Positions 1 through 41,092 of a DNA stretch of 64,000 bases are shown one piece after another. The notes under the pieces are model-generated. The model was not told where the DNA came from and ran no database searches. It worked only from the letters and a program-made list of their open reading frames with translations. Both the position numbers and the translations under genes were made by a program. Source of the stretch: Biomphalaria pfeifferi (Eukaryota). The first letter of the stretch is position 1; every line of letters starts with the position of its first letter. The stretch is from assembly GCA_030265305.1 (NCBI GenBank), contig JASAOG010000080.1:1746630-1810629 (forward strand), written 5' to 3'.

Positions 1-1649
1 AAGTCTATGGTCTATCTGTGAGCATTTGTATACGCCAGTTACCAGTAGCGGTCTAAGGGGGTGGCAAGTGTGGTATCCGCCCCAGGCCAAGCGCCTTAGG
101 GGGCCCCACGATTAGAAATTCCTGTCACCGTTAGCTTCGAAAACCAGACCATTTCTCATGAGTTAAGACTTGTTGCTCAATATTTTCTGGCATTTATAAG
201 ATACCGATTACCATGTAAGATCTTAACACGACATTTTTGGTTTGGAAATATCGTTCTGTTTCGGTAAAGATAGCTTCTTATGGCCTGTACTGTTCAAGTG
301 GCTTTCCCTGTTTAACAGTTCTCCTCGGCAAAAGAAAAAAAACACGTAGCAACCAATCAAAATCGTTTATTTCGTAAATAAAGAGTCATACAGTACATTT
401 ATGTTGCATTACAGTATAAAAAGAATTGGTGCATATATAGTAAATATACCGTTACTTTAGTCTGCCATAGAGAAAAAAGGGACTAAGGTGTGTGAGAAGG
501 ATTCCTTGTTTGGTACTGTGGCTTATCTCATATAGTTATTTCGGCCAATCAGCATCCAGAATGTTTGACGATGATGTATTGCGAAAGTCAATGGACCACT
601 GTAGCTCCTATCGTACACTTTGTTTTTATACCAAAGACTTAAGGCACTATTTTCTTTTTCTAGTAAGTTGTTTTGGCACGATAGCTAGCTACTGGAAGAC
701 AATTGGCAAACAAAAGCTGCTGCGACTGGAAACATTTCGGTAATAAAATTCAGCAGCACGGGGTTTCTGTAAATGTTTGTAAAATGTATCAAATGTTTTG
801 GATGCATCTTCAGAGTTGAAGATAATCTACTTCATAGTCCAAATCTCCCTTAGGACGACGGGGGATGGCAGCGAGAAGTGTATGAACCCAGGACCATCGA
901 GACAACCGAACAACAGTCCAGCGCGCATACCTCACGGCTATGCAGCCATCCATACTTGTAAGTATTTGTCAGCGTGATTGGATTAAGCTCTGATTGGTAG
1001 TGCAATGGATAACTTGATGATAGAAAAAAATTAGAAAAAAAAAACTACGTTGGTGAACAGTCTTAGCAAGAACTCTAGCGATTGTTCAGTACCTTGACCA
1101 AAATATAAAAAAACAGCAACAAAAAAAAAAAAAAAAAAAAACAGTTGGAGAACACAGAAACTTTATGCACCAAATAACGGTCAGTTTTTAGGCTCTGTTG
1201 AGATGCTTGACAAAGTCGACCCAAAAAGAACATCTTCGACGAATCAAGACCGGTAACTCGGATATAAGATTCAAAACGAGCATATGGATCTGGTGGCATA
1301 TTCTCCCGTCATCCTTGACTGCACGCTTGATGTTAACCACAAAGAGTATATGTCTTTTACTAAGCGTTTTGTGGACGTATCAGATCCAGAAGCTATGGTG
1401 GAGAACATTTCAAATTTATGTAGTTAAAAGGCCAATAGTACAGTTCGTAAGGCAGTATGTTTATTAACAAAAAAAGGCCTCCAGCGTTAGTGGCGGACGA
1501 TCCGGTTAGCGTGACATGGTGTCATATATAAAATCTACCCATACTGCTCAGGGCCCCACATTTGACATTCGCCCAGGGCCCCGCGCACTGCTAAGGCCGC
1601 CTCTGCAGTTACACTTCAATGTTTGTGTTCTGGCGAGGATATGTTTTTA

Positions 1650-1850
1650 TTTTTATTATACATTTCGTTTATTTCCCTTGCATGTTTTTATTGTTGTTCT
1701 GCCTTGTGTTTATTTCCCTTGGATGTATGAGTGCAGGAAAGCCTATAGGTTTTTATTTTCCCCAGTATTTATTTCCCTTGGATGTGTGAGTGTATGGACG
1801 TGTATAGGTTATCATTCTGCCTTGTGTTTAATTCCCTTATTTGATAGAAA
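1650..1850. repeat. Degenerate tandem repeat (TTTATTTCCCTTGGATGT.TGAGTG.A.G...TATAGGTT), about 4 copies
   Basis: Explains ORF-track 1516..1902, which is not a gene. Confidence 0.6.
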
Positions 1851-2329
1851 GGAATTTAGCGTAAAACTTGTATTCTCAATAGTATTTAAATATTTAAAAT
1901 AAAGAATATATCATTCTGAACATAAATAAACACTAGTCTAAAAAAACGTATGTAAATAGGCTATCAGTAAGTGATTTTAACTGGTCACTGGTCATTACGA
2001 TTACAGTTGATCGATACATTCCATGCCCTTAGGGACCAATAGCTCACATTTTGAGATTTACCTTAGTGACACACAACATTTCTAGTGACACACAACATTT
2101 TAGACGTTTTATATCATCAACTTTTGTTTTTATCCACGACCAAATCAATGTACTTTAAAACATACGGACAGGAAGAGGAATACTTCATTACAACTAGGAG
2201 TAGGATTCGACCAGTCAGTGGCATAACACCCATGACGTGATGGGGCTCATTGCGACAAGTTCCATGACTAATAATCCACAGTGCCCATTTTTTAAAAAGA
2301 TGTACAGACATTGAATGCAATGACACTAT

Positions 2330-2480
2330 TACCCGTTGTTGACACTATAAATTTAAAGAACTTGATACTTAATTGAGTTTAATGATTCTATAACTTTAAA
2401 GAACTCGCTACTGAATTCAGTTTAGCGACACTATAACTTTAAAGAACTCGCTACTGAATTGAGTTTAATGATACTATTAC
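2330..2480. repeat. Tandem repeat, 3 x ~45 bp (GACACTATAA.TTTAAAGAACT.G.TACT.AATT.AGTTTAATGAT.CTAT)
   Basis: Direct reading; also a small 2 x 19-bp repeat TAGTGACACACAACATTT at 2064-2102. Confidence 0.7.
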
Positions 2481-5204
2481 TCGCGAAAGGCGGTGCATAA
2501 AATGGAATAAAAAAAATTGAAGCCATACTGATGTATACAGAAAGATTTACAATTGACCTTTAAGTTTGTGGGAGATGGCACCTTTCTACTCCGCTGCCTA
2601 CAATAGGCCTACCAGTGTAAACAGATTCTTTTATGTATATTTATTTATACTATAATAATTTTGATGTAGGCAGTTCAAACTATTTCTATGCGGACTATAC
2701 TCAATATTTTGTGGGCAATTTATAATCAAGTAGCCATTTCTATGTTAAAAGGTCTGTAATTTCATTAGAAAATACTAGGATATCATCTACAATGAATAAA
2801 AAAAATGATTAAGCTTAAACTTCAGTCCCACCGCTGTATTCATTGGTGAGTAGGTTTATGTGTACACACACTGATCATGCTTGTTACATGTTCCCTTATC
2901 TAACAAAATCTAAATTGCTGACAGCTATTGCACTTTTAGATTAGTGATATTAGTGTTTGTCCTCAAGTCTCGCTTGTCAAGTCGGATTTTGTGGGGGAAT
3001 ATTAGTGAGTGTCGCTACTCAGACGTGTTAAGTTGTTAGGACAAAAGTCGCCCGCCCATCTTAAGATATGCTTTTTTTTTTTTTTTAAAGTGACTCAACT
3101 TATTGAACTTTGTGTTTATCTGGATAATTGATAGAGAAATAACTGACATGGTATGTAACTCATGCCTTATGATTGTGAGAAGATCTGTCGAGCTTTAAAA
3201 TCGCAGTGCCAGTAACTAAAGTGAAGCGTGTTTAATATGGAAACTGTGATTCGGTCTTAAATTGAATTCAGACATTTGTTAAGTGTTGGGAAAACAAAAG
3301 GGAATGATTAGATTTTTAAAATTATTATTGAGAGTGAAATTAAAATAGAGTGACATTCTTCGATTTTTTCATATTTTTGTTTTGTTTTGTGATTTAGGTT
3401 TTATAAAAATGCCGGTACTTTTGTGTCATGTTCAAATATTTCATTTAAAAAAAAGCCCATTATGAATGTTATGTTGTTACAAATCAATCCTGGGCCTGCA
3501 AAATATTGATTGGATTAATGCCTATTTTAAATGACTTTTACGCCTGGATAGCTTTGCAAAGAACAAAAAACTTTCAGATAGATTATGCAATAGAAAAAGT
3601 ATTATTTTAAATGGTCATGACTTTACAAAGGATTACTCGGATAAACTGTACAAAACTGAATGAGAAATTCATAATTCCTTGAATTAAAAAAGATTATCAC
3701 ATCTTAAATATGTAGTCCTAGGCCTGGTGATAGATTCTTTACAAACTTTAACGTTTTATTCAACTCATTCGTTTACTGACAAGAAACAACTATCCAGAAA
3801 TATCATTATATTAAAAAAATAAAACATGGATGAATATAGTAAAAAGTATCAAGAACTGGAGGCGTACAAGCCAATAACGTTAGATGGAATTGTTCACAGA
3901 AAATCTAGACAGAAAGTTATGAGAGAAGAGAAAAAGGTAGAACAAAATTCTTCATTTTTCTTCGTTATGTCAAATGTCTGTTTAAGTGATAAGTAGCATA
4001 CAGTGGCGTAGATAGCTATGTGCGAGTAATACAGGTCTCAAGGGGCATCAAACTAAGGATACCTTTTCTCAATAAAAATCAACGCATAGTACATTATACT
4101 GTACATACATGAACAAAGACAAACTTCTGAATTTGAAATGTTTACTATAAATTAATTTACCCTGCTACTTTGGTTAATCTCTGTTCTTTCTTAGATTAAA
4201 CGTAAGCTGTTAACCAAGTTGAATCAAGTGTAGGCATAGTAGATTTGTTTAAATCTCTGAAGGCAACGCACTTTTACACGCCCACTTTCTTTTGTTACTC
4301 CATTGTTCGGTACGCTGGTTCATCTAGATCTAGAGCTTATAAATAAATGCTTTCAACTCTAAAAAAAAGCAGAATGTGGAAATTGCAAAGACAAAATCTA
4401 GGTAATTTCTAGGGGTTTGTGAAATCACTATCCAAGTTCCATTCTCTCCCGAGAGAACATGTGCTGAGAACTAAGCTTAGTTCAAGACCAAGTACTTCCA
4501 TGTGTCCACAAATACATAACGAACTTATTGCAATATTGAGTGATAATGGGACAAATAGTTTCCGACTTTTTTTGACAGTTCAATTGACATCACAAAACTG
4601 GATCAATTTTTCCAGAAGTCATTGAACTTGAGATCTTCAATTTTAATTTAAAAAAATGTTGGCTAGTTGATTCAGTTATAAATATTGTCTTTATTTCTGA
4701 CAATTATAGTAAGTGAGATTCTGTGCGAGCAAAGTTTTTTTCAGACCAAAGCGGATTATTACTTAATGGCAATCAACGCTGAAAAAAAATTGCGACTCAC
4801 TAATTTGGCAATTGTTGTGAAAAAAATAGAAGTCCAATTTTGCCCGCAAGAAAGCAGCTAAGAATTTTGAAGTTTCTTGTTGTTGTTTTTTTTTTTTTGG
4901 CAAATTAGCAATACTTTAACAATAAATACACATTAGATCGACAAAAAGTCATTTCGCTGGGGGGGGGGGGCATCACAAGGAGCTTCCGCACTGAGCATCA
5001 TATACCATAGCTACGCCACTGGTAGCATAAGATTATTTTTAAAAGCATTGTTTCACACTTTAAAATTAGAAAGTTTGATGCAAATCACAAAACAGAGTAC
5101 TTTTGATAATATTTAAAAATATGAATACAATCATTTTAAGATCTACATAATGTTGTTACAAATCTACAATGGTTCGATACTATACTCATTTTCAGTTCTA
5201 TGCG

Positions 5205-5445
5205 TGGTCGAAAGGCCAAGTGCGCTTGAACTTGGCTTGGCTTGGCTACCTAGTAGGGGGCTCGAGGTTCGACACCCGATTCGGGCAGAGTTGTGTTTAC
5301 TGAGCGCCTAAAGGCAGCACGGAAAACCAACTCCCCCCCCCCCCCACCCCACCGGTCCACAAATGAGATTGGACCAAAAGCGCTTTGAGCATGCTATAAG
5401 CATGAAAGTAGCGCTATATAAAAGCTATAATAATAATTTCAATAG
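5205..5445 (+). repeat. Dispersed repeat family X (second copy in reverse at 34515-34610), ending ..AGCATGAAAGTAGCGCTATATAAAAGCTATAATAATAAT
   Basis: 5205-5250 GTGGTCGAAAGGCCAAGTGCGCTTGAA and 5385-5445 GCGCTTTGAGCATGCTATAAGCATGAAAGTAGCGCTATATAAAAGCTATAATAATAA match the reverse complement of 34515-34610 (TTATTATAGCTTTTATATAGCGCTACTTTCATGCTTTCAAGCGCACTTGGCCTCGCGACCAC). The copy at 5205 carries a ~130-bp internal insertion that includes a tRNA-like GGTTCGACACCCGATTCGGG segment. Confidence 0.55.
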
Positions 5446-6549
5446 AAAAATACGGTAGCGACAATTTTTGGAACTTCTATACCATATGATAAACATACGT
5501 ATGTAGATTTTCCTGTTACTAACTGTGGTGTGCTGGTTTGGACATTTCTCACAAGTATTTCTTATACCTGACAAAAAAAAAAAAAAAAGAATCCCTAAAG
5601 GAAAAAATAACCAATTAGTTACATAACTATTGGTAATTTTTTTTTTGTTTGGTATCGAACAAGTGAAAAGTTTTACTTGACTGTTCTAGTGGTATAAGTT
5701 GAACTAGCCCCTTTATACTTTGTGTAGGTCGTCGCTTAAAAGTTTGAAACTAACAATAGATAACTATAAAACCTTCTATGTTCATAAGCACTTCGCTGGC
5801 ACAGTTGTTACTCAATTTTAAATGTTTGTTATAAAATGCAATCTCGGAAACATTGACACAGATACCGCCTTCTTTCTCACCCCCCCTCCCTTTTTTTTCC
5901 CAAACTGGTCCAGACAAGTGATAGAATCATAGCGCATTGAGAGAGCTCTAATGTGTATCTGTGTTGGTGGGGGGTGCGCTAGAATTTCTAAATCCTTATG
6001 TTTAGATAGCTCTAAGCTCACGTAGTTCTGTTGGTTACCTGAAATTTGTTAGGAAATAGTAAAGGACGGAAGTCATTGTGCCGACACGTGGTTTCATTTT
6101 TTTGTCTTAGTTTTTATGTCACATATAGCCTTATAAATGTGATTTAGACCCTTTTGACTTTTATCACTTGAGAAATTCTTTTTGCTCACAAGACAAAGTT
6201 TTCAGTTTTCTTTTGTTAGCTTTCTGTAGCATTAACATTTCCAGAACGGGGTTGTTAGCTTTATGTCCGGTCTTCCTCCTTTATCCTTGGGACAGGAAGA
6301 ATATTAATGGCCTTTTGTACCTTTCTTGTGAAGTCTTAACTCTTCATAGCCTCAGAGAATTCTGCAATTTTCCTGAATTTATTAGTTTAAATGCATTGTT
6401 TCAAACACTTCAAACAATAAGATGGGGATTACACGTTTCAGACTATAAGCAGAAGCGCCGACAGACAGAAATCTCAAGCCTCCAGTGATGAAATTGCCGG
6501 CTTCAAGCAGAATGCAGCCCGCGGTGTTGAAAGCGACAGTGATGACGAC

Positions 6550-6649
6550 ATGGCGGTACGACGGATTCAGGATAACCGCTCCAACCTTGACATAATTGGG
6601 GTAGACATCTCGAACGAAAATGACCTTGATACTGACCTGGAGCCTGAAG
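6550..6649 (+). CDS. LRR-EF gene exon 1 (MAVRRIQDNRSNLDIIGVDISNENDLDTDLEPE + 1 nt)
   Basis: First in-frame ATG (6550) after stop at 6418-6420. Open frame continues upstream to 6421 (acidic SDSDDD), so an upstream acceptor is possible. Donor AAG|GTTAGA at 6650, phase 1, matches next exon. Confidence 0.45.
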
Positions 6650-9600
6650 GTTAGAATCTTTTTCATTTTTATTTTAGTGCTCAAGTTTTAACGCACTAAT
6701 TTAATGAGCTGTTTTTTTCTTTTCTTTATCTGCCATCCTGTCTTCTTTTACTTCTGGCAGAGGCGGACTGGGTATCAAGCTAGTCCTGACAAGTGATGAC
6801 TATTATCATGTAATCACTGAGCCAACTAAATGACTAAATCAAATTACTGACACCACTTTTTCTCTACTTAGAGACACTGAGGGAGCGCGGTGGCTGAGTG
6901 GTTTAAAGCTTGGTTTTCGAATCTGGGGTCCTGCGCTCGAATCTCAGTGAAGACTGGGGTTTTTGAATTTCGGGATTTTTAGGGCGCCCCTGAGTTTACC
7001 CTACTCGAATGGGAACCTGACTTTAGTTGGGGAAAGTAAAGTCGGTTGGTCGTTGTGCTGGCCATATGACACGCCTGTTAACCGTGGGTTACAGAAATCT
7101 GCCCCATAGATTGCAAGGTCTGAAAGGGGAACTTAGAGACACTGTGGTTGTTATCTCTTGCAGTATTGACTGTATTGCTATTTTATAACTTCTAAACACA
7201 ACGTGTACGCCCTTGTCAAATATTTTGAAGAGAAACTACTCATCTCAAATTTAAAGTACCAAAATAGCTTGACGTTTGACTACGTAAGATATCCATATAG
7301 TTCAATTATTCCACTCCTTAAAGCGTAATTCGAACTCTCCTAATTCAAAGTCACTTTATATTCCTTTCCACTGTGTACGTAATCTGCATACTTATTGATT
7401 TTTAGCTTTTTGTTACAGTTGCATTAGTATTTGGGGAAGACAATAAGTAGTCGCTGCACCTACGAACACGTAGTCCACAGTAGTTCACGTTAAAACATTA
7501 TTTAAAGATTACAAAGAGAGTTTGTGTTTCACATGAGCTCAGAAGCGGGCTTTAATATATTTTCGTTTGTCACCTTACATGCAGTTTTTTTTAACCAATG
7601 CGCAATCATGAAGCCAGATTATCAGTGAAGAAGTTTGTGATCTATTATAAAAACTTACCTCCTCTGAAGTCTTTTATTTAAAAAAATATTTATGAAAAAA
7701 AAAGTGGCTTTTATATTTAATTAAAAAAATTAAACAGTTCGCTTTCGAAAACAAAAAGTAGCCATTGCACCAAACATTGCAAGCTGCAAAATATCGTAAA
7801 TGGATTTTCAATAAAATTTCTTTTTTAGTTTTTGAGAGACCAACGGACGAACAGACCGACCACACAAAATTAATGTCGGCTTTCGGGGGATGTAAAACAC
7901 CAAAAAAACATCATAGGCCTATCCCTAACAAATGTTATCGGTAGCTTTACTAATAAATGATCATTAATTTGTTTTGATTGCGCTAATAAAAACAATGTAC
8001 ACATTGCATTTTCTTTTGGTCTCGGGCAATGTGTGATTCACATTAGTGATTGTTAGAATCGATACTCGGATGTCAAAAGAGCCCCGAGATTCGATTACCA
8101 TTAAGAACCAAGGGAGCCTTAATGTTTACTTAGTATTACCTTCGAACGCTACTTGAACGTGGGGCCATATCGAAATGATACTTAAGTTATTTGGACGAGG
8201 TATAAGCTCTTGCTTTAGAACTGCGTCACATATCACGTTTGTTTATCTTTCTAAAGCTGCTAAGGAGAAAGACAACATACGTCATTGTTACCACTTTTTA
8301 TAATCAAGTTTCTTGGTTCAAGTGTCAGTATTGGGAACTAAAGCTGGACGTACAGGACTATAATCAACTATAATAAATAGAAATTACTAAAAAAAAAATT
8401 GTAGTCCTAAGGGCCGCTGATAATTCTTTAGTTCCCTCACAGACTTAGAGATCGTAGGGGAAGCCTGCAATATGCGTACTGGACTGTCGTCTTGATGAAC
8501 CCTTCCCGCCGAGGCGCCGCCTTCCCACGGCGTCCTGCAGGAGATATGGTCAAGGATGTAATAATTTTTACGAGGATATTAGACTCTGTGGCTAATAGCA
8601 CAGCCGACCCCCTCAATCTTCCCAACACCTCTCAGCTACTCATTAAGAATTTTAGATTTGTGAACACCAAAAGAAGACTACATCTTATTTTCAATTTAAC
8701 AAAATGTGTATATATTTATTTAATTTGAGAAACAAACGGTTTGCATTCAATAGACAAAAGATGACGTTGTAACTAAATTTTGCAAGCTGCGAAATATCAT
8801 GAAACTGGACTTTCAAAACCTTTTTTTTTTAGTTGAGATAGTCCTATAAACCTGACGTACAGTCGAACAGGAAGATTAGTCCTACTCAAAACTAATAGCG
8901 GCTTTTCCCCTTTCTGGACGGCTAAAAAGCATGCCGTTGATTTTCCTGGCTAATTCCATCAATCTTTTTCATGCTCTAATGGCATTACAGAACAAGGAGC
9001 ACTTGTACGAATATGTCTCATTAAATGGAATAGGAAATGTGCCATTATCTTTGTATTATATCTATGTTGTGCTATAATTATTTTACAGAGGCCACCCCAG
9101 CTTATGATCACTCAGGTAAAACATTGTACCTTGACGCCTGCAAAAAATTTGGAGTAGTGCCCATCTCGTATTTTTTGCGACACATGAATGACAATTCATT
9201 GTCAATGAAGCATCATGGTCTGGCAGGGGAGGGAATGAGACCTATCGCAATCTCACTTGTGGTAAGTTGTAAACCCCATGTGCTACATATCAAAATCTGG
9301 CTGGCTGGTATATAATGAAATTCTTAGCAGTCAAACTGCAGTTCACAAATTTGAGTCCCAATTTAGGCTAGAAATACTTAGCTCAGAATTTAACTCAAGA
9401 TATATCTTTCCAAGCATCTCATGGCAGCACAGACTCTTCCAAACATATATTTACAAATGCAGTTAGACCAAGTGCTTGGAGTATGTCATAGTACATTATT
9501 TGTCCCTCTATAAAAAAAATAATAATAAAAATAATGTCTTTATTATCTAAAGGGAGATCATTTCTGTTTGCCTTTGCAGTTTAGTAATTCTTCCCAAATG

Positions 9601-12600
9601 AAGTTATACATATTTTTCAACTTATATGTAAGTGAGCACAATTTTATAGTAATACTATAATAATTTGAGAGAAGACTAGATTTACCTAATTTTAAATTTA
9701 TTTATAGTAATGTATTTTTTAAAATAAAGTCTACAATCATTGTTATAGACTTTTCCCCTTATTACTCTCCCCCCCCCCCCTTGATGTGACACGTTTACTT
9801 TGTAATGAATATAGATCTAGCACTGGCACCAATAATACATGCAGGTTTTGTCTTTTGAAAGATCGAATTAAAGAACTATAAATTTTATACAATTGTTAAT
9901 TTTATGTGGCCCAAATAAAAGTTGTTTCTCTCTCTTCAGTCCAATGCCACCATCACCACACTAGATCTGACTGACAACTGGCTAGGGGTAGATGGAGGAC
10001 TGGCATTATGTGAGATGCTGAAAGAAAACTGCTTCATCACTGATTTGGTAAACTTTCCATGGTTATAGTTTTAACATTGTTATTATAATAACAAAACAAA
10101 TAAATTAGGTCAAAGGACATTCTTTCAGCTTAGGAAATCTATTGAAGTTCCTTTGTCCATTGTGTCTAGAACACTTTTGTTTGACATTTGATGAATACAT
10201 TTAAGGGAGCAACATAAACATCTAATTTTATTTTCCAGAATTAAATATTTTAATAGCTAATCTAAATTTTAAATGTAAATTTTCTATCAAATAAAAAATT
10301 ACACATCAAACACAATTTTTTTAGGATAATTTTTTTCTAAATTAAAATTATCATGAAAAAACTTTTTGGAAAAACTGAAAATAAAACTGAAGCCAGAAAA
10401 AGACTCATAATTGTCAAGGTGGGTTTACAGAGTTATCTAGGGATTGACATACCCCACCTCAACGCTGAGTAATAAATTCCTGTCGGGGTTGTAATTAGGC
10501 CTTGGCTCATCCGCTGGGCATCCCTGACTGTCTATTAATTGATATGTTAAGTAATTATACAGAACAAGTAATGGTAATAAGTTAACATATATCAGTTAAC
10601 AACAAGAGTTTAACTGACAACAGTTTAACTGACAACAGTTTAATGAATAGATGATATAACATATTTTGACATGAATGATGAGTAGGTACATAATAATAAT
10701 TACAAGGTCAAGTACAAATTAAGGAAATTATTCAACACAAATATAGCCAACATAGCATGTCCCCAGAGATAGCGCACAAACTATTATGGGGCACAAAAGA
10801 AAGACATCACTCAACGAAGCAATTCTAGATGCCCACAACAATAATGAGATACTATCTTATAGTAATTTGGCTATTTCTACTTCTGTTCTACATTTTTGTC
10901 TGCTTTCTTTTGTTGCTTGATCTATGATTGACAGGCAAACAACTCAAAGATATTGGTCTCATTATTTTCAAGTTGTAAACATTTTTGTCAGTTTTTGCAT
11001 TCACTACAAAATTTTCTTTTATACATTTGTTACTGTTTTATCATTTTCAGAATTTATCAGACAACAACCTTGACAAATGTGCAGCCCAGTTGTGTGAAAT
11101 TATTCAGAAGAATGACACGCTACGAAAAGTTAATCTCTCAGGTATATTAGATTTATGCATATATTTAAAAATGGATTTAATTGTGATAATCTTGTTATAA
11201 AGTCTGTAGGTATCTAACCTCTTTAGTAAACATTAACTAATATGGAGATTAAATAAAAAAAAAATTTAAAAAAAAATATATATATATTAACTTTTTTATT
11301 GTAAAAAGGATATCTCGTCATAATAAAATTTCCTTAATTTTATTATAGGGAATGGATTTGATGATGTCAGTGCCATTCACCTGACCAACTTGATACTGGT
11401 ACATTTTTTTTTTTTAATTTAGCAATGGCGATTAGCCATGTTTTTCATATTTAAAGGTACTTAAAAAATGTGTTTTTAAATAATTATTTAAACAATTTTT
11501 TTTTCAAACTTAGACAACAACCAAGCTGGAGAGTCTCAATCTAAGCCACAATCATTTGGGTGAGAAAGCTGGTCTGATGTTGGGTCCTGCCATATCTGAG
11601 AACCTGTGTCTCAAAGAGCTGGATCTATCTTGGAATCACCTGAGAAGGAAAGGTGCAATAGCAGTGGCTGCAGGGGTCAAGGTGAGACATCAAACTATTC
11701 ATTTCTTTTGCTAGGACAAGGAGCATGGTAACCAAGGGATATAATAGAAATTGACATAACAAATTAGCACAGCAACATGTGTTCTGAAGATGAAAAAAAC
11801 TACTTGTTTCTACATTTGGGTTATTTCTCTAGAAACACTGCAGTGAGCCTTCTAAGTCATTACCTCTGACCCCACACACAAAAATCATATAGATCTGTAG
11901 CATGAGTTGGCTAAGGACACTGTTATTAAGTTTTGACTCTTTGATTAAAAAAATATATAACAAAGAAGAATAGACTAAATCTAATTAAAATGAACAGTTA
12001 GATTAAAACACTGATAATGTAGCAATCTTTTAAACAGTTACCATCGAACAACCTAGTTATTTTTTTAATTCATTTATATTACAAATTCTATGTTGCCTGG
12101 ACATGTGGTATGTGCTCTGGAATGTCTTTAGATGGTAACAATGGTCTCACGTACAATCCCTGTTCACCACCATTCCCCATTATCCTGCAGGATGTTTCAT
12201 CTGAGATGTAATTATCTTCAAATCTGAAGAAACATTCAAAAACTTGTAAAGTAAAAAAAAAAACAAGCTTTCATGGCCTAATGTATAAGTTCTTCTTCTA
12301 TCCAGATTTAAACTGTTTAGCTGTAGTTTTAGTCTTGTCTGTGTGACAGAAAAAAAAAAGATTAACTCTACTTCTGTTTCACACTACCTCCCAGGGTGTT
12401 GGCCAGGGTCTATTTCTTTGATTGTATGATATATCTGCTTTATATGGGTGGAATAGTGTCTACAATAGGGTTGTTGTTTTTTTCTGCTTAAATGGAAATT
12501 TTCAGTATTTAATTAATTTTTCTTTTTCCTACTGAAATTTTTTAGTCCAATGTATTTATGAAGAAAGTGAATCTGTCTTGGAATGGATTTGGTCAAGAAG

Positions 12601-15600
12601 CATCCTCTGCTCTAATGGACGCTCTTAAGGCCAACAATGTACTAGAGGAAATAGATCTCACGTAGGTTGAATGTTCTGTTCATAATTAGACATTTATTGG
12701 ATATGGCATATTTTTATTTATTAAAGCAAATAAAATGGTACTAAATAATAATAATAGTAATAATAAATCACCAGAAAATTCCTCAGTGGACTGCAATGAA
12801 ATTTGTCTCTCTTTAATGAAGCTTGACCCTGGCAGTGCCAGAGAATGAATATTCGTTGTTTCTAACATAATAATAATAATCCTTATTATTTATAAGAAAC
12901 TTTGTCTTACAATTTGTGCATTACACCAAACAATACATTATAACTATAGAAAACCAAAATATTCATTCACACCAGACTTATTTATAATTTACTTCTGAAA
13001 TGTTTATATTACATTGTTAAATTGTATTTAATGATCTGATTGCCAGGGGAATAATAGAGTTTTTGTGTCTGTCTTTGCTGTTGGTATCTTGTTTCTCTTA
13101 TGTAATGGTAAAATCACAAAATCCTGACCCAAAGGAGGATTTTTTATTTTTATAGGGCTGATAGAGGAAGGAATGTGGGTATTATATCTCATCCTAGGTG
13201 ATGATAAAAGTACATATAACTTTACTGGCTTGAAAAGTTCTTTTTGGAGACCTGTATGGTCAAGTCTAATGTTAGCTTGGTACCTGGTTTGAGTCCTTGT
13301 TAGAAAGTATGTTTCACCATGTTTTCTTTCAATATCTATTGTACCCTAGTTGCTGCCATTACATGTTACATGTCATGTTCATTTATTTATTGGAACCTAT
13401 TTTAGTGCATGTTTTTTTTTTACAACTGTTTTAAATATAGAAACAATAGACTAACTACAGAAGGCGCTGTACTGATTGGTAAAGGTCTAACAATTAATGA
13501 AACCCTCAAAGTTCTAAAGGTCTGCTCTTTTGATTTTTTTTATCACTCAGCAAATCAGCGACAAGCTAATTGCTGTAATAAAATTATAGTAGTGCAGTGT
13601 TTCTCAAACTTTTTCCTTAATGAAACACTTTGCTCACTTTGAGTATTTAATGGAACACTTTGCTTATTTTTTTAGAGAGATTAATTCACATGGTGGCCTA
13701 TAAGTTAATTATTCCAGTAGTTTGCAGAACACATATTTAAGCCTTGTGGAACACTAGGGTTCCATGGAACACAGTTTGGTAAACACTGTAGTAGTGTTTA
13801 ATCTGCTGAGATTACAAAATTTTATGAAATATTTTTAAAATTCCTTTTTTTTTTTTTGGTGACTTCAGAAAATTGCATAGGAAGGATGATATTTGGTGTC
13901 GGGGCTTCAGCCAGGACCCTACTGGAGAAGCTTACAGCGCTCCACCAGACCACCTAGAGAAAGACCACAACATGGCTGTTTTTTTATTATTTTTTGAATA
14001 ATTTGTTTTCGATGGCAATCCTCAAAGCCTTAATCTAAATATGTGGGCATCTTATCTTTTCAAGGAACAAATCAGTTGTATTAGCAATGTAGTAAGGGCC
14101 TGTAAATTCATTTTAGAATATTTTTCAAGTAAAAAAGGTCCTTTTTGAATATATATATATATATATATGCTGTACACACGTCTATGCTTAGGGTTAGGGT
14201 TTACTGGGCATTAGGGTTAGGGTTTGAAAAAAATTGCCTCCCCCCTCCCAAAGTTCTGGATCCGCTAGTGATCATTCACTGTAGTATCTCTCGATATCAT
14301 GCCGAATGTTAATTTCTTTAAGACAGACCCAAAAAAAATTGATTTTATTATTAATTTTTGTATTATGACTTTTTAAAAGTTAATGGCTACTTATAATTTT
14401 ACATGATTGTAATATGATCTAAGTCACTTTAAGATCAACCAGTGAACTATTTCAGGTTGGCAAGAATCCTATGCAGAGTGCTGGCTGCTGGGCTATTGCA
14501 GCTGCCATCTTGAAAAATCCAAATTGTGTTCTGGAAACTGTTGACTTCACCGTAAGTGGAATCTTTATTTTTTTTGCTTTTTGTTACAGTTAGTAAAGTT
14601 CCTTTTTTAAACATTGTGATCTATAGGTCATCTGTTTCTTTGGTCTATGGTTAACGAGTAGGGTGTCATTTTGCCAGCACTATAACCAACCATCTTTACT
14701 TTTCCCAACTAATATTCAGGCACCCATTAGAGTTGGGTGTACTTAGGGGCGCCCTAAAAATCCTGTAAGTCAAAATCCCTGTCTTCACAGAGATTTGAAC
14801 CCTGAACCCCCGGAAGGGAAGCTAAGTGCTTAACCACTGTGTCCCCTTTTGTTACAGTTGAATAAGTATAAAAAAATAAATGGGGTTTGGATAGTTTATC
14901 TCTACTACAAGAGTTTTAATGTATCCTTTCCTCATTCCTCTCAAAATACTTTTATACTAATTTTTTCTAGAATGATAAGGTTGGAATAAAATTTTGAAGC
15001 TTCTTTTCAAGACCAAGATGTTTTAAGAAAAGAAGTAATATTCAATGATATTTGCTGTCTAGAGTTGTAAAGGGTAAAAAATAGCTAGCATAATAGCAAA
15101 AGTCTTTATTATTCACTGTAGAAGTTAGCTTACTATTTTAAAAAGTTGGTGGACCTAATAATGCCTTTGGTTCCTTAGAAAATTAATCTTCATCAATAAA
15201 AATCTGGTGTTTATTTAGTTTGAAGCCAGGCAATTTATTTAAAATCAGTCAATTTTAGATTTAAAATGTGATTTTCATAATATCTTACTAAACTTTGCAA
15301 CTAAATAATCTTATTGAGTTCTTAATGAATTTCAAGATTTATGAACAAAAACTTTTGAGACAATTCAGATATTTAAATTGTGCACTCTAGCATTCCTATG
15401 TTAGCCATTCAAATTTATGAACTCAACACTGTCTGCCACCTTTCTTTCTTATCTTATCTTCTTATCTTATCTTATATAAATAAAAGCTAAAAGCTATAAA
15501 TATATATATATTACAGACATTACTTCAAAAAAGAAGATAATTACGTCTGGCGCAATTACTATGTCTAAAGCAGTTACTATGTATTCATGGTCTAAAAAGT

Positions 15601-18600
15601 TAATGTAATTATATTTATTTATTTTATCTTAATTAATTCTTTCATTAAGTAATTATCAATTATTTCAATTTTGGCACTTAGGATATAATTGTAAACAAAG
15701 ATTTCATTGCCTTGTGGAAGCAAGTTGAGGAACAATTTCCAAAACTAAGAACTGTTCATGGAGGTACATTTAAAATTTTTATTTTAGTGCTAAATTACTT
15801 TGACTAGCATGTATGGACATTTAGAAACTTAATTGCTTGTTTTTCTGTTTTTTGATAATATTAATAAAAAAAAAATGTGTGCACTAAATTGTGGAAATTT
15901 TCAGCAGCACTAAAAGAAATATTAAACCTTATTACAGTAGCATTTTTCTTTGGTAAATGTAATAGTGTTTGAGACATAATTTCTTATTATACAATAACAT
16001 AAAAAAAAATTGTTTGAATATTGATCAGTCTGCTTAAGAAGGTTTAATAATGATTAAGTATCAGTACCAACATTTTATTGGGATAAAAAACTGAAATAAG
16101 AGTTAAACATTCAGAAAATTCAGTAAATGTTTACCATGTATTTTTTGGTCAGACTCTATTTCACCATTTAGACAGCAAAATAAATTATAGTCATTGTTGT
16201 CTTTGATCCCTTCTTTTCTAGCTGGCTGTAGGGGCACATCATATCTTTAGAATGTCATCAAATGAATTTGAATTTAATTCGAATCGTCATCAAATCTGCA
16301 ACTTGTTTACAAAAAAAAAAACAAAAAAAAAAAAACTAAACCCTTTATCATTTATAATCAGAAATAGTTTTGCTCTGTAACATTGTTGCTATGTCCTAAT
16401 TTGTTTAGTGATCAAATATTCGTTTTAAACTACTATTTTGTTTATCAGTGCAACAGATTAACCCTTCTCAAAATTCTTACAGGAACTGAAATACCATTGA
16501 AACCAAAGCAAAGAGTCCATCCACTGGCCAAAGTTACAGCATTTATCAATGCCAGAAATATTAGGCTGATAGACTTCTTCAACGAGTTTGATAAAGATGG
16601 AAGCATGAATGTGTCCAGAGAGGAGTTTAAGCAAGGAATATTGGTAAAAGTTTTAAGGATTATTGTCTGTGATGAGAGTTGTCCTTTTGGTTGATATAAT
16701 ATGAATTTAATACTTATTATCTTTTGGAAAAACAAGTATTACTGGACTTACTTTATTATAGTGATGTTTGTATTTGTCTTAAATACCATTTTTAGTTAAG
16801 CTTTGGGCTAATGACCTACATCAACCATTCTTGTGAAGATCCTTTCTGGATGAAAAAATTGGGTATTAAATGTAAATTTTTCTGTAACTTGTTGTCAAAT
16901 GTAGGCTTACATAATTAGCCTTCTTTTCAAATAAATTAAAATGAAAAATAATTTCTTGATTTAAAAAAAAAAAAAGTTAGTTTGAAAAGGAAATAACAAT
17001 TATTAACAATGGAGCTCATGTTTTTGTAACTTAACAATAAGAGTGAGCTTGGCAAAAACTTACTTTGTTTTCATTTTCTGCTGCAATGGAAAATTACAAA
17101 CACAATAATTTAAAAAAAAAAAAAAAAAATTTGCTAAATTTTTTAGCTTAATATGTTTTAAATTCATTTTTTTTTCTAGCAACTTATACAGGTAACAATT
17201 GAAATGTTTAAATTTTTCCATAATACAATTTTTTTTACTATTTTGGAGATGGATGATATTGCACAGGCTTTTTTTTTTTATCTTCACCCTTTCCTTTTCT
17301 ATTTCCTTTTAGAATCATATTTTGTTTGCTCTAATTGGCATAATTCCTTTTTCTTTATTTATTACTAACACTAACAAGATATAATGAAAATGTTAACAGC
17401 AAAGTATCTCAATGTATCATAGCTCCTTAAGGTTTATATGGCCTAAACAGTTAATTTCCTTAATATGATTAAATTTGTATGCCATATAGTTAAAATATAA
17501 CATACTTCAATATGTTTCTAAAAATAGATACTTAAAATAATTAATACCCAAGTAATTGTAAAATAAATGTGATCAGTATATTTGTAGACATTATTTACAA
17601 TCTAGGCTATCTAATTAGTTTTGTAGTCATCTGTTAATTACTTCAATTCCAATTTATACATTAAAAATGTAATCATCTGTTGATTACTTCACCTAAACAT
17701 TTACACATTAATAATGCAATTATCTATTAATTATTTCAACTCCACATTTACACATTAAAAATGTAATTATCTGTTTATTATTTCAACTCCACATTTACAC
17801 TTTAGATTTACAGCAAGGCATTAGAAACACAAAATAACTATAATTATTTGAGCATAAATGTTGATTGAACAGAAACTCTGATCTGTCTGTAAAGTAATAT
17901 TGTTCTCTTTTCATAGATATACTAATTTATCTTTTTTTTTTTTTACTTCATCTTTCTGATAGTCAGTTGTAGAATAGTTCTTTATATTTTTACTTAGAGG
18001 TTGCTTTTTTCTTTCTACTGTTTTTTTAATTTTCTTATGCTTACATTTTCTTTTGTTTTTAACTTTGTCATTCTTTCATAAGTATTTTATTATTAACTTT
18101 TGCTTTAAATATATTAGAAAGCCAGTAATTATTGATGTTGTATGCTATTTTTTTCAATTTGCACACTGAAGAAAATTATGTACAATAACTGACCAAGAAT
18201 GGTGACTATCACTTGACATGAACTTGTAATGATAATGTTACAAATGTGTTTTTCAAACATCTTTTAACTTCAAACATTTTTTTTTCTTTGTTTTTTTTCA
18301 TCAAACAAACATTGGGGGGGGGGGGGGGGGGGGGCTTTTTAAAAAATGTTTAGTTCATCAAAAAACATTTATATTTTTCTTTGGGGCTATGTTCCAATTA
18401 GGAAACTGGCATAAATCTATCTCCTGAGGATATTGAATTGTTGATTAATGAACTAAATGTCAATGAGGATGGTGCTATCAATTACAGGTACATTTTTTTA
18501 TTATTAAAGTTAGTTTAGATAGTCTTAAATATTCATGTTAAACTACAAACCCTAATGTTTACTCTACATAAAATAATATCTGTAAATCTTTTTAGAGCAG

Positions 18601-19106
18601 GGTTGGCAAACCTTTGTTTTGTTTCTACATGATTTAGATGTTCCTTCAAGATTGAGGATTATTACATTGTAGACTAAACCTCCTGTAGGATGCAGGGGAT
18701 GGCTGTGGGCAGAGTTTGAACTCAGGACCATCAAAAAGACATTCCAGAGAGCATATCATACAACCAGGGAGACATCTAGACAATATATATATGTATAGAT
18801 ACATGACTGTGATAAGGGTTAAGCAAGGAAATCTGCGAGAACCTCATATTTTTTAAGTTACCAACAAAATCAGGAAATCAATTCCTATTGCTGTGTTGTA
18901 AAAGATGTCAAAGATGTCTGACGTAGGACTTTACATTGAAATCCCAGGTTGATTAGTGTTAGAAATAAAATACTTATTATTAATTTAGCTTCTAATGTTT
19001 CTTTTAATTAAACCATTTCAGTGAGCTAGCTGTTGGACAAATGGACTATGAAGGTAAAAGGAAAAGAGTCATCCCCTATACAACATTGAGGCCAATGACA
19101 TCATAA
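6550..19106 (+). CDS. Gene span: RNI-like leucine-rich-repeat protein with C-terminal EF-hand pair (LRRC74/LRRC34-like LRR region), 13 coding exons
   Basis: Exons 6550-6649, 9089-9261, 9940-10047, 11051-11141, 11349-11398, 11514-11681, 12546-12661, 13441-13519, 14456-14551, 15682-15763, 16483-16643, 18402-18487, 19022-19106. Every exon has an AG acceptor and GT donor, and intron phases are consistent across all junctions. Repeated LxxLxLSxNxLGxxG ribonuclease-inhibitor-type LRR motifs. Two EF-hand loops (DKDGSMNVSREE; NVNEDGAINYSE) near the C-terminus. Confidence 0.7.
6882..7130 (+). mobile_element. tRNA-derived SINE, full-length copy with 13-bp target-site duplication CTTAGAGACACTG (6869-6881 and 7131-7143)
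   Basis: tRNA-like head with A-box TGGCTGAGTGG and B-box-like GCTCGAATCTC. Conserved body ...TTAGTTGGGGAAAGTAAAG..GGTCGTTGTGCTGGCCA.ATGACAC...TTAACCGTGGGTTACAG...GGTCTGAAAGGGGAACTTA. Five more copies in this window. Lies in LRR-EF intron 1. Confidence 0.8.
7740..7860. repeat. Dispersed/direct repeat Y (second copy 8770-8880)
   Basis: AA.ATTGCAAGCTGC.AAATATC.T.AA.TGGA.TTT.AA.A..TTT.TTTTTTAGTT..GAGA shared by the two loci ~1 kb apart; they flank a GC-richer island (8420-8650). Confidence 0.45.
9089..9261 (+). CDS. LRR-EF gene exon 2 (EATPAYDHSGKTLYLDACKKFGVVPISYFLRHMNDNSLSMKHHGLAGEGMRPIAISLV)
   Basis: Acceptor TTTTACAG|AG, donor GTG|GTAAGT. The 'ACKKFGVVPISYFLRH...NHHGL..G..AIA' start is typical of RNI-like LRR proteins. 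Confidence 0.7.
9940..10047 (+). CDS. LRR-EF gene exon 3 (SNATITTLDLTDNWLGVDGGLALCEMLKENCFITDL)
   Basis: Acceptor TCTCTTCAG|, donor TTG|GTAAAC, phase 0/0, LRR motif. Confidence 0.75.
11051..11141 (+). CDS. LRR-EF gene exon 4 (NLSDNNLDKCAAQLCEIIQKNDTLRKVNLS+g)
   Basis: Acceptor TTTTCAG|, donor CAG|GTATAT, ends phase 1. Confidence 0.75.
11349..11398 (+). CDS. LRR-EF gene exon 5 ((G)NGFDDVSAIHLTNLIL)
   Basis: Acceptor TATTATAG|GG completes a Gly codon; donor CTG|GTACAT. Confidence 0.65.
11514..11681 (+). CDS. LRR-EF gene exon 6 (TTTKLESLNLSHNHLGEKAGLMLGPAISENLCLKELDLSWNHLRRKGAIAVAAGVK)
   Basis: Acceptor CAAACTTAG|, donor AAG|GTGAGA; two LRR units. Confidence 0.8.
12546..12661 (+). CDS. LRR-EF gene exon 7 (SNVFMKKVNLSWNGFGQEASSALMDALKANNVLEEIDL+ac)
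   Basis: Acceptor TTTTTTAG|, donor CAC|GTAGGT, ends phase 2. Confidence 0.75.
13441..13519 (+). CDS. LRR-EF gene exon 8 ((T)NNRLTTEGAVLIGKGLTINETLKVLK)
   Basis: Acceptor AATATAG|, donor AAG|GTCTGC. Confidence 0.7.
14188..14232. repeat. Short interstitial telomere-like repeat (TTAGGG)2..(TTAGGG)2
   Basis: GCTTAGGGTTAGGGTTTACTGGGCATTAGGGTTAGGGTTTG, immediately after an (AT)10 run; in LRR-EF intron 8. Confidence 0.6.
14456..14551 (+). CDS. LRR-EF gene exon 9 (VGKNPMQSAGCWAIAAAILKNPNCVLETVDFT)
   Basis: Acceptor TATTTCAG|, donor ACC|GTAAGT. Confidence 0.75.
14699..14846 (-). mobile_element. tRNA-derived SINE, 5' portion (~150 bp), same family
   Basis: Reverse complement gives GGGGACACAGTGGTTAAGCACTTAGC...GGTTCAAATCTCTGTGAAGACAGGGATTTTGA...GATTTTTAGGGCGCCCCTAAG... 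In LRR-EF intron 9. Confidence 0.7.
15682..15763 (+). CDS. LRR-EF gene exon 10 (DIIVNKDFIALWKQVEEQFPKLRTVHG+g)
   Basis: Acceptor CACTTAG|, donor GAG|GTACAT. Confidence 0.65.
16483..16643 (+). CDS. LRR-EF gene exon 11 ((G)TEIPLKPKQRVHPLAKVTAFINARNIRLIDFFNEFDKDGSMNVSREEFKQGIL), EF-hand 1
   Basis: Acceptor TTCTTACAG|, donor TTG|GTAAAA. EF-hand-like loop DKDGSMNVSREE. Overlaps ORF-track 16383..16694. Confidence 0.75.
18402..18487 (+). CDS. LRR-EF gene exon 12 (ETGINLSPEDIELLINELNVNEDGAINY+ag), EF-hand 2
   Basis: Acceptor CCAATTAG|, donor CAG|GTACAT. With the next exon gives canonical 12-residue loop NVNEDGAINYSE. Confidence 0.7.
19022..19106 (+). CDS. LRR-EF gene terminal coding exon ((S)ELAVGQMDYEGKRKRVIPYTTLRPMTS*)
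   Basis: Acceptor CCATTTCAG|, stop TAA 19104-19106. An alternative internal donor GAAG|GTAAAAG at about 19052 cannot be excluded. Confidence 0.55.
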
Positions 19107-25911: not shown

Positions 25912-39903
<13,992 letters not shown>

Positions 39904-40039
39904 TACTACAATGCGCTTAAATGTTTCGTTTCGGAAAAAAATACAAGATATTTACAATGTAAATAGCACTCATCTATACAAATAAACAGATCAACTTGAT
40001 GTAAAAACTAAGACAAAAAGTCTAGTATCTATATCTATA

Positions 40040-41092
40040 GATCTAGTCACCCGATCCAAATAACTGACTCCTAAAATCCGTCTTAGCCATCTTTGTTGAG
40101 CCACATTTAGTGTTTTTCAATTTCGGCAGATGACTATTCACTGCACTTTATTAATTGAGCCCCGCCAATGGTAGAAATGTGTAACCTCTCTTAAATACGC
40201 TCTTGGAATTAAGTGACTGTAGTTTGCATTAGATTTTGTATCGAAAAGTGAAGTTTTTAATGTTGTTGTTTTTTAATTCAAAACCCCATTTAGCTACGGT
40301 CATAGAATTTAGTAACTGTAGTTTGCTTTAGAATAATATTGAAGATAGAGGTTTTCCACCTCAAAACGCTCTGTAGGGGGATTTTAAACTCAAAACCATC
40401 TGGAGGGATTTTAAACCGCTGAAGGGGGGTTTAAACTCAAAACTGAGTCAAAACTCCTTTTGGCAACACTCATAGCATTTTGAGTGCGTAATTTGCTTTT
40501 TTCTTACATTGAAGATGTATTTTTTAGCGTCAAATCCCGCTTTGCGTTTTTTTATACCAGGTATTGAAGAGGCATTTTTAGCTTCAAACCCTATTGAAGA
40601 GGGGGTTGGGGTTAACTCAAAACCCCTTTGGCTACGCTCATAGAATTTTGAGTGTGTAATTTTCTTTTTTTATATTGAAGAGGGGGGTTTATCGTAAATT
40701 TTGGAGGGGGTTTAAAAATAAAAAATCTTCCTTAACTGTGCTGGTGAAATTTGGGGGATTGTCGTTTGCATTTTTTTGCTTTGTGTTATAGAAAAGGGGC
40801 ATTTAACTTCGAAAACCCCTGGTAGGGGGTTTTAAACTCACCCCCCCCCCGGTAGGGGGTTTTAAACTCAAACCCCCCAGGTAGGGGATTTTAAACTCAA
40901 AACCCCTGGTAGGGGGTTTAAACTCAAAACCTCCTTTACTGTGCTAAGACAATTGATAGTTTAGTATTAAAATCTCACCTAAAAAAAAAACAAAAGCAAA
41001 GCAAAAAATCAGTCACTTAATTCCGATCCCCCCCCCCCCCCTGGAATTTCATTTCGGGGGGGGGGGGTGAACCCCTGGCTACGCTTATGCGT
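40040..41092. repeat. Inverted-repeat arm B (reverse complement of 28166-29385)
   Basis: CCCGATCCAAATAACTGACTCCTAAAATCCGTCTTAGCCATCTTTG...TTTCGGCAGATGACTATTCACTGCACTTTATTAAT... then the same ~135-bp units (AAACTCAAAACCCC..GGTAGGGGGTTTTAAACTC) and outer end ...GATCCCCCCCCCCCCCCTGGAATTTCATTTCGGGGGGGGGGG..GGCTACGCTTATGC. Starts ~140 bp upstream of the CHK2 ATG. Confidence 0.8.

What the first reader, a model, noticed from the sequence alone, without database searches (positions are those of the whole stretch)
6550..19106. Gene combining ribonuclease-inhibitor-type LRRs with a C-terminal EF-hand pair
Exons 2-10 encode about 11 RNI-like LRRs (LDL.DN.LG..G...L, NLS.N.F.D, LDLSWNHL...GA.A.A). Exons 11-13 encode two EF-hand loops (DKDGSMNVSREE and the canonical NVNEDGAINYSE). 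The N-terminal ACKKFGVVPISYFLRH...NHHGL.GEG start resembles LRRC74/LRRC34-type proteins. I do not recall an LRR + EF-hand architecture for those families, so the domain fusion or the last three exons deserve checking. SINE copies sit in two of its introns.
Basis: partly seen in the sequence, partly recalled or inferred. Interest (0 to 1): 0.5.

Follow-up and report, generated by a model that had tools for sequence, protein, structure and literature searches.

The report
Snail LRRC74 gene, native EF-hands

Summary
Clean AG/GT exons on the + strand encode an RNI-type LRR horseshoe followed by an EF-hand pair (Pfam LRR_6 3e-26, EF-hand_7 8e-10).

The implied novelty does not hold.
- The in-window translation is 504/504 identical to Biomphalaria pfeifferi KAK0054155.1, "LRRC74B-like isoform X1".
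- Nearly all of the 120 best homologues carry the same LRR + EF-hand Pfam combination. They include molluscs, annelids, echinoderms, tunicates, amphioxus, cnidarians, lungfish and salamanders.
- A 2015 Nematostella paper already lists the C14orf166B (LRRC74A) homologue as "LRR, EF hand".
- Two uninterrupted ~2.5 kb transcript contigs from a related animal carry both parts in one ORF.

The closest solved structure is bovine LRRC74A (PDB 9FQR), a distal-lobe subunit of the nexin-dynein regulatory complex.

Corrections to the gene model:
- The ATG at 6550 is internal; that exon starts at 6442.
- An alternative first exon lies at 3826-3936. The isoform-X1 first exon lies outside the window.
- A 12-nt alternative microexon (17180-17191) sits between the two EF-hands.

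The likely function, a calcium-responsive axonemal regulator, is inferred. Interest is low.

The parts
3826..3936 (+). Alternative first coding exon (MDEYSKKYQELEAYKPITLDGIVHRKSRQKVMREEKK). It has a GT donor and is used by isoform-X3-type transcripts. With it the window holds a complete 541-aa isoform.
   Evidence: tblastn of the B. glabrata isoform X3 N-terminus gave 95% identity, E=7e-21. ATG and GT donor were read directly. The joined ORF was checked.
6442..6649 (+). Exon encoding the disordered acidic/Ser-rich N-terminal region.
   Evidence: Acceptor ttcag|ACT. The alignment to P0001 starts at 6439. The same exon in B. glabrata has AG/GT borders.
9089..9261 (+). Exon with the family-specific N-terminal cap motif YLDACKKFGVVPISYFLRHM (9127-9186) and the first LRR.
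   Evidence: The motif recurs in 47 family representatives.
9940..10047 (+). LRR exon (LDLTDNWLGVDGGLALCEMLKEN).
11051..11141 (+). LRR exon.
11349..11398 (+). LRR exon (GNGFDDVSAIHLTNLIL).
11514..11681 (+). Exon with two LRRs (NLSHNHLGEKAG...LDLSWNHLRRKGA).
12546..12661 (+). LRR exon (NLSWNGFGQEASSAL).
13441..13519 (+). LRR exon (NNRLTTEGAVLIGKGL).
14456..14551 (+). LRR exon (VGKNPMQSAGCWAIAAAI).
15682..15763 (+). Last LRR / C-terminal cap of the horseshoe.
   Evidence: model strands to residue 503 of P0001.
16483..16643 (+). Linker helix plus the first EF-hand. Loop DKDGSMNVSREE lies at 16590-16625.
   Evidence: Pfam EF-hand_7/EF-hand_1. Coordinates. Loop conservation.
17180..17191 (+). 12-nt alternative microexon (QLIQ) that lengthens the exiting helix of EF-hand 1.
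   Evidence: Flanked by ag/gt. Conserved in B. glabrata with one synonymous change. B. glabrata isoforms X1 (618 aa) and X2 (614 aa) differ by exactly these four residues. It lies in helix 550-564 of the model.
18402..18487 (+). Entering helix and loop of the second EF-hand (NVNEDGAINYS; loop 18456-18487 plus 19022-19025).
19022..19106 (+). Exiting helix of EF-hand 2, basic C-terminal tail and TAA stop.
6880..7135 (+). SINE copy with a tRNA-like head, in the intron after the 6442-6649 exon.
   Evidence: Self-blast and five-copy alignment.
14649..14795 (-). Inverted copy of the same SINE family, in the intron after exon 14456-14551.
   Evidence: 81% identity to the 6880 copy over 148 bp; alignment.

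Best explanation
The region is the Biomphalaria (pfeifferi-type) orthologue of the metazoan LRRC74 family. It is one gene with at least 15 coding exons in the window, counting the alternative first exon (3826-3936) and the 12-nt microexon; a further first exon, used by isoform X1, lies outside the window. The protein has a disordered N-terminal tail, an RNI-type LRR horseshoe of about 10-11 repeats with a family-specific N-terminal cap, a short helical linker, and a native C-terminal EF-hand pair. All of this is shown. [quoted passage not shown] The LRR horseshoe would serve as the docking surface. The EF-hand pair would bind Ca2+ and change how the subunit packs against its neighbours, giving a calcium input to dynein regulation and waveform. 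Alternative inclusion of the QLIQ microexon between the two EF-hands would tune that module. Location, Ca2+ binding and the microexon effect are inferred, not shown. My confidence is about 0.97 for identity and architecture, about 0.6 for an axonemal N-DRC location, and about 0.4 for real Ca2+ sensing.
For: Gene model: frame-consistent AG/GT exons. In-window translation 504/504 identical to B. pfeifferi KAK0054155.1, named LRRC74B-like isoform X1, and 98% identical to B. glabrata XP_055861450. Pfam LRR_6 3e-26 and EF-hand_7 8e-10. Nearly all of the 120 best homologues carry both domains, across about ten phyla. So do 50%-identity cluster representatives named LRRC74A or LRRC74B from ray, frog, gecko, pupfish, hagfish, corals, amphioxus, nemerteans, annelids and a brachiopod. 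RNA level: a 61%-identical 518-aa orthologue is one uninterrupted ORF on two independent 2.5-kb Logan contigs. Purifying selection acts on the EF exons (dN/dS 0.26). Homologue loops keep the Ca2+ ligand positions: loop 1 in 61/70 and loop 2 in 55/70 unique loop pairs. Best solved relative: 9fqr_Km, E=1e-82 with the single sequence and 9e-129 with the profile, against 1e-30 or worse for other LRR proteins. Foldseek top hit is the same chain, E=5e-27, TM 0.80. That chain is closest to gecko and pupfish LRRC74A. Leung et al. 2025 (PMC11779644) assign LRRC74A to the N-DRC distal lobe. The Nematostella homologue belongs to the apical-organ (ciliary tuft) gene set together with axonemal dynein.
Against: No expression, localisation or Ca2+-binding data exist for the snail protein. 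The structural assignment is for mammalian LRRC74A in sperm only, and I found no LRRC74 chain in the human respiratory-cilia model 8J07. Loop 1 has a conserved Met at position 6, where Gly is canonical. In this species loop 2 starts with Asn, whereas all 70 distinct homologue loop pairs start with Asp; either feature could weaken Ca2+ binding. By sequence the EF module resembles the EF pairs of axonemal proteins EFCAB6 and CFAP115 more than calmodulin. My understanding, not checked here, is that those pairs act as structural modules. Bovine LRRC74A works in the N-DRC with a decayed EF loop, so Ca2+ sensing is not essential to the family's structural role.
Confidence: 0.6

Rival explanations
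1. The gene is the same LRRC74 orthologue in the axoneme, but the EF-hand pair is a purely structural packing module that does not sense Ca2+. The protein would then be a static N-DRC scaffold subunit.
For: Met replaces the canonical Gly at loop 1 position 6 in 58/70 homologue loop pairs. Asn sits at loop 2 position 1 in this species only. The module scores better against EFCAB6 and CFAP115 EF pairs than against calmodulin. Bovine LRRC74A keeps the fold position with a decayed loop, NPSGEMMMPVGE.
Against: Ligand positions 1, 3, 5 and 12 are kept in most homologues over more than 600 My. A non-binding structural module would not be expected to preserve them. Loop 2 is a textbook DxDGDGxIxxxE in nearly all relatives.
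Confidence: 0.3
2. It is a non-ciliary cytosolic RNI/NLR-like LRR protein, for example an innate-immune or signalling adaptor, with Ca2+ regulation unrelated to the axoneme.
For: The LRR type is the one found in RNH1, NOD2 and NLRPs. A B. glabrata gene annotated 'LRRC74A' appears in a list of genes differentially expressed in schistosome-challenged snails; whether it is this locus is unknown.
Against: There is no NACHT or other NLR domain. The match to LRRC74A is about 50 orders of magnitude better than to RNH1 or NLRs. The family-specific N-cap motif is present. Many of the next-best solved relatives are also axonemal proteins, such as LRRC34, DRC5 and trypanosomatid doublet LRR proteins.
Confidence: 0.07
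3. The LRR exons and the EF-hand exons are two adjacent genes wrongly joined.
For: None found. Only the absence of RNA data for this very species leaves it formally open.
Against: The frame is continuous, with matching intron phases and no stop. Bovine LRRC74A aligns across the junction. Single-ORF transcript contigs exist in a relative. The architecture is the same in over 100 species.
Confidence: 0.01

Closest known systems
Biomphalaria pfeifferi KAK0054155.1 and B. glabrata XP_055861450.1 (LRRC74B-like isoform X1)
   Same: 504/504 identical to the B. pfeifferi protein and 98% identical to the B. glabrata protein over the in-window coding sequence. Exon structure is the same, including the microexon.
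   Different: Nothing of substance; this is the same gene. The first exon of isoform X1 lies outside the window.
Bovine LRRC74A (PDB 9FQR chain Km), N-DRC distal-lobe subunit of sperm axonemes
   Same: 37% identity over 391 aa. Same N-cap motif, same LRR count, same linker, and the same position of the first EF-hand helix-loop-helix. Foldseek TM 0.80.
   Different: The bovine loop 1 has decayed to NPSGEMMMPVGE, and no second EF-hand aligned to the family profile. The snail protein keeps both loops and adds a long disordered N-terminus.
Non-mammalian vertebrate LRRC74B and LRRC74A (lungfish, coelacanth, salamanders, ray, gecko, pupfish)
   Same: Same LRR + EF-hand pair architecture, 45-49% identity.
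   Different: Vertebrate loops are partly eroded, for example EEDKPIMKTHEE in a frog and EEGGSALITRAE in gar. No QLIQ-type insert was seen.
LRRC34, DRC5/TCTE1 and trypanosomatid axonemal LRR proteins
   Same: RNI-type LRR horseshoes that are also axonemal.
   Different: Matches are E=1e-15 to 1e-30 and cover the LRR region only. They lack the LRRC74 N-cap and the EF-hand pair.
Ribonuclease inhibitor (RNH1) and NLR LRR domains
   Same: Same 28/29-residue LRR class.
   Different: They are not orthologous, have different repeat numbers, and have no EF-hands. The snail protein has no NACHT domain.
EFCAB6 / CFAP115 EF-hand pairs
   Same: Best non-family matches to the C-terminal linker plus EF pair (8g2z_1L 1e-13; 8i7o_Q1 3e-31 with the profile).
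   Different: Those are much longer proteins (940 and 1516 aa) with no LRR domain reported in these searches. To my knowledge they are multi-EF-hand proteins of the doublet-microtubule lumen.

Membership tests
LRRC74 (LRRC74A/B, formerly C14orf166B) | RNI-type LRR horseshoe of about 10-11 repeats | tested here: met
   Pfam LRR_6 E=3e-26. The AF2 model has 11 strands at 28-residue spacing, pLDDT about 97.
LRRC74 (LRRC74A/B, formerly C14orf166B) | Family-specific N-terminal cap motif Y..aCk..gvvPvSyflRhm...l.mkHHGLg | tested here: met
   YLDACKKFGVVPISYFLRHM...MKHHGLAG at 9127-9222. Several of its residues are invariant or nearly invariant in A1. The motif is present in bovine LRRC74A and in 47 family representatives.
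LRRC74 (LRRC74A/B, formerly C14orf166B) | Much better full-length match to bona fide LRRC74 than to any other LRR protein | tested here: met
   9fqr_Km scores 1e-82 against 3.5e-30 for the next solved chain. The best database hits are all named LRRC74A/B-like. The chain is confirmed as LRRC74A-like by its best matches to gecko and pupfish LRRC74A.
LRRC74 (LRRC74A/B, formerly C14orf166B) | Fold agreement with the solved member | tested here: met
   Foldseek rank 1, E=5e-27, TM (target) 0.80, 37% identity.
LRRC74 (LRRC74A/B, formerly C14orf166B) | Physical residence in the N-DRC distal lobe of the axoneme | not testable with these tools
   Known only for bovine sperm LRRC74A (PMC11779644).
EF-hand pair (Ca2+-binding) | EF-hand pair HMM above the curated threshold | tested here: met
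   EF-hand_7 39.3 bits against cut-off 30; EF-hand_1 27.7 against 25.4. The model shows helix-loop-helix twice, with short paired strands.
EF-hand pair (Ca2+-binding) | 12-residue loops with oxygen ligands at positions 1, 3, 5 and 12, and Gly at 6 | tested here: inconclusive
   Loop 1 DKDGSMNVSREE has ligands in place but Met at position 6. Loop 2 NVNEDGAINYSE has Gly at 6 and Glu at 12, but Asn rather than Asp at position 1, which is unique among 70 homologue loop pairs.
EF-hand pair (Ca2+-binding) | Measured Ca2+ binding | not testable with these tools
   Needs recombinant protein.
NLR / NOD-like receptors | NACHT nucleotide-binding domain N-terminal to the LRRs | tested here: not met
   No NACHT or other NLR domain in the Pfam scan. 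The N-terminus is disordered.
Ribonuclease inhibitor (RNH1) | Orthology-level similarity over about 15 alternating A/B repeats | tested here: not met
   Only E=6e-16 over part of the LRR region, with 10-11 repeats.

The most novel reading that the evidence does not exclude
[quoted passage not shown] Mammals let the sensor decay, while lophotrochozoans elaborated it with alternatively spliced cassettes at one fixed site between the two EF-hands. These are 4 residues in heterobranch snails and 11-20 residues in bivalves. That would give isoform-specific Ca2+ control of ciliary beating. This species additionally carries an Asp-to-Asn change at the first ligand of EF-hand 2.
Probability: 0.25. Interest if true: 0.4.

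Novelty: already known. Interest (0 to 1): 0.12.

Why it matters
As a genome-scan finding it matters little. The gene is annotated and its domain layout is the family norm. There is a small residual value for cilia biologists. The only member with a known location, mammalian LRRC74A in the N-DRC, is a derived form with a decayed EF-hand. Most animals keep near-canonical Ca2+-binding loops, and some molluscs and annelids have an alternatively spliced cassette between them. That makes non-mammalian LRRC74 a cheap, testable candidate for a Ca2+ input into the N-DRC.

Tried and rejected
- I looked for the isoform-X1 first coding exon in window 1-6441 by tblastn. It is absent. In B. glabrata it maps about 3 kb before the position matching window base 1.
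- ARAGORN and Rfam at gathering thresholds found nothing in the gene region. The tRNA-like head of the SINE therefore rests on the consensus alignment only.
- Giant multi-LRR proteins flooded the profile search of 1.84 billion representatives. Only 47 family-sized hits were usable. The 18 of 20 looked-up representatives that carry a name are all metazoan, so I found no evidence for the architecture outside animals, and I did not test its absence.
- A paper search for LRRC74 together with EF-hand returned no paper with either term in its title or abstract, and I did not read the five hits further. The 2015 Nematostella table found in another search lists the two domains together.
- I considered and rejected a two-gene mis-join, an NLR or RNH1 identity, and chance ORFs.
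- The long ORFs in the window listed mechanically look like low-complexity or intronic read-through, not genes; I did not test them.


Full report
**What is there**

The sequence between 6.4 and 19.1 kb on the + strand carries a clean multi-exon gene. Every internal border is AG...GT, the intron phases match, and the exons join into a 464-aa open frame ending at TAA 19104-19106. All quoted motifs are present.
- Pfam gives LRR_6 E=3.2e-26.
- It also gives EF-hand_7 E=8.4e-10 (39.3 bits, cut-off 30) at residues 382-439 of that model.

**Identity of the gene and the organism**

- The best database hit is B. glabrata "LRRC74B-like isoform X1", 98% identical.
- The window is about 92% identical at the DNA level to the B. 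glabrata locus on OX365784.1.
- Exons differ at only 24 of 1515 bases. dN/dS is 0.24 overall, 0.12 for the LRR part and 0.26 for the EF part.
- The in-window translation is 504/504 identical to B. pfeifferi KAK0054155.1, "LRRC74B-like isoform X1".

The window is therefore from B. pfeifferi or a near-identical genome, and the gene is already annotated.

**Corrections to the gene model**

Comparison with the annotated isoforms shows three things.
- The exon holding ATG 6550 starts at 6442 (acceptor ttcag|ACT), so that Met is internal.
- Two alternative first coding exons exist. The isoform-X1 exon (114 codons) lies about 3 kb before the position matching window base 1 in B. glabrata and is not in the window. 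The isoform-X3-type exon is in the window at 3826-3936, with ATG and a GT donor. With it, the window holds a complete 541-aa isoform.
It is conserved in B. glabrata with one synonymous change. B. glabrata isoforms X1 (618 aa) and X2 (614 aa) differ by exactly these four residues, so it is alternatively spliced.

**Do the EF-hand exons belong to the gene?**

Yes, on four lines of evidence.
- Nearly all of the 120 best homologues carry both LRR_6 and EF-hand_7 in their precomputed Pfam lists. They come from gastropods, bivalves, cephalopods, a chiton, annelids, nemerteans, a brachiopod, a bryozoan, a rotifer, echinoderms, hemichordates, tunicates, amphioxus, cnidarians, lungfish, coelacanth, bichir, gar, bowfin and salamanders.
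- Representatives of more distant 50%-identity clusters named LRRC74A or LRRC74B also keep the N-cap motif and both EF loops. These include ray, frog, gecko, pupfish, hagfish, paddlefish, corals, amphioxus, nemerteans, Owenia and Lingula.
- A 61%-identical 518-aa orthologue is encoded as one uninterrupted 1557-nt ORF on two independent ~2.5 kb Logan contigs, from SRR10323723 and SRR3401917. For a gene that spans more than 12 kb in snails, this means spliced mRNA.
- The alignment to bovine LRRC74A from a solved structure runs without a break from the N-cap, through all LRRs and the linker, into the first EF-hand.

The two-gene scenario is effectively excluded.

**Is the architecture new?**

No. 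UniRef already names many of these proteins "EF-hand domain-containing protein". Sinigaglia et al. 2015 (PMC4300403) list the Nematostella C14orf166B homologue with domains "LRR, EF hand" in the apical-organ gene set.

In bovine LRRC74A the first loop has decayed to NPSGEMMMPVGE, and the family profile finds no second EF-hand. Some other vertebrates show partial erosion. I did not examine mammalian LRRC74B.

**Anatomy**

It shows:
- a disordered N-terminus of about 180 residues;
- an LRR horseshoe with 11 strands at 28-residue spacing, pLDDT about 97;
- a short helical linker;
- a classical helix-loop-helix pair, pLDDT 82-92.

The QLIQ residues fall in the exiting helix of EF-hand 1.

Loop conservation was measured across 70 distinct homologue loop pairs.
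- Loop 1 has consensus DKDGSMSVTrEE. Ligand positions are kept in 61/70. An unusual Met at position 6 is itself conserved in 58/70.
- Loop 2 has the textbook consensus DKDGDGEINYSE, kept in 55/70.
- This species has Asn at loop 2 position 1, whereas all 70 homologue pairs have Asp.

**Likely function**

The closest solved structure is chain Km of PDB 9FQR, the bovine sperm 96-nm axonemal repeat.
- It scores E=1e-82 with the single sequence and 9e-129 with the profile. No other LRR protein scores better than about 1e-30 with the single sequence.
- It is also the top Foldseek hit (E=5e-27, TM 0.80).
- The local PDB copy labels this chain "Tubulin alpha-3 chain". Its sequence is closest to gecko and pupfish LRRC74A.
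- Leung et al. [quoted passage not shown]

By homology I infer that the snail protein is an axonemal N-DRC subunit. I further infer that its EF-hand pair supplies a Ca2+ input. Neither point is shown. The main rival is that the EF pair is only a structural module. It resembles the EF pairs of the axonemal proteins EFCAB6 and CFAP115 more than calmodulin.

**Verdict**

This is an ordinary, annotated, conserved gene. The only mildly interesting residues are the alternative cassette between the EF-hands, which recurs at the same site in other molluscs and annelids, and the contrast between preserved invertebrate loops and the decayed mammalian one.

Noticed in passing
window 17180-17191; homologues: An alternative cassette sits at one fixed site between EF-hand 1 and EF-hand 2. 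It is QLIQ here, RLLK in Aplysia, LLIK in Physella, KFQK in Haliotis, WIRK in Capitella, and 11-20 residues in oysters and clams, in some isoforms only. No such insert appeared in deuterostome or cnidarian homologues.
   Followed up: partly
window 18456-18458: The first Ca2+ ligand of EF-hand 2 is Asn (AAT) in this genome. B. glabrata and all 70 distinct homologue loop pairs have Asp. It is a single G-to-A change and is also present in the deposited B. pfeifferi protein.
   Followed up: partly
window 3826-3936: An alternative first coding exon (37 aa, isoform-X3 type) lies inside what is intron 1 of isoform X1. The Bulinus orthologue starts with a similar peptide.
   Followed up: yes
window ~26700-42100, minus strand: The neighbouring gene is a CHK2-like kinase. 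Joined exon fragments give Pfam Pkinase 2.7e-42 and FHA 2.8e-10, and an SQ/TQ-rich N-terminus lies at 41876-42109. This matches the FHA+Pkinase neighbour at the B. glabrata locus.
   Followed up: partly
window 57552-57788 and 59249-59425, minus strand: Two ORF fragments with Cys motifs resemble a GFA / CENP-V-type domain. Pfam GFA scored 23.1 bits, just under the 24.3 cut-off.
   Followed up: partly
window 33796-34000 (+), 51041-51244 (-), 53596-53699 (-): Further copies of the SINE family seen in the gene's introns. The consensus is about 270 bp with a tRNA-like head (GGTGGCTGAG.GGTTAAGCG...GGTTCGAATCTC). ARAGORN and Rfam do not call it.
   Followed up: partly
window 43271-43542 (-) and 63328-63875 (+): ORF fragments that look like the C-terminal tails of non-LTR retrotransposon ORF2 proteins. 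The first gave no Pfam hit, and the second was not scanned.
   Followed up: no
L001 17430-25601 (B. glabrata), versus window ~4291-4297: B. glabrata has an insertion of about 8 kb in intron 1 that is absent from the window. It contains a gag-like zinc-knuckle ORF, so it is probably a retrotransposon.
   Followed up: no
PDB 9FQR chain Km: The local PDB copy labels this 473-aa chain 'Tubulin alpha-3 chain', but its sequence is an LRRC74A. The label is wrong in that copy.
   Followed up: yes
P0084 (Branchiostoma belcheri); P0236, P0241, P0246, P0247, P0258: The amphioxus orthologue carries a second, duplicated EF-hand pair. Several invertebrates also have a more divergent paralogue group (loop 1 DKDxSWTLTxxE), also LRR + EF-hand and also named '74A-like'.
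   Followed up: no
window 35993-36400: A long (TATA/TATG)-type microsatellite generates spurious 'YIYIYI' ORFs on both strands.
   Followed up: no
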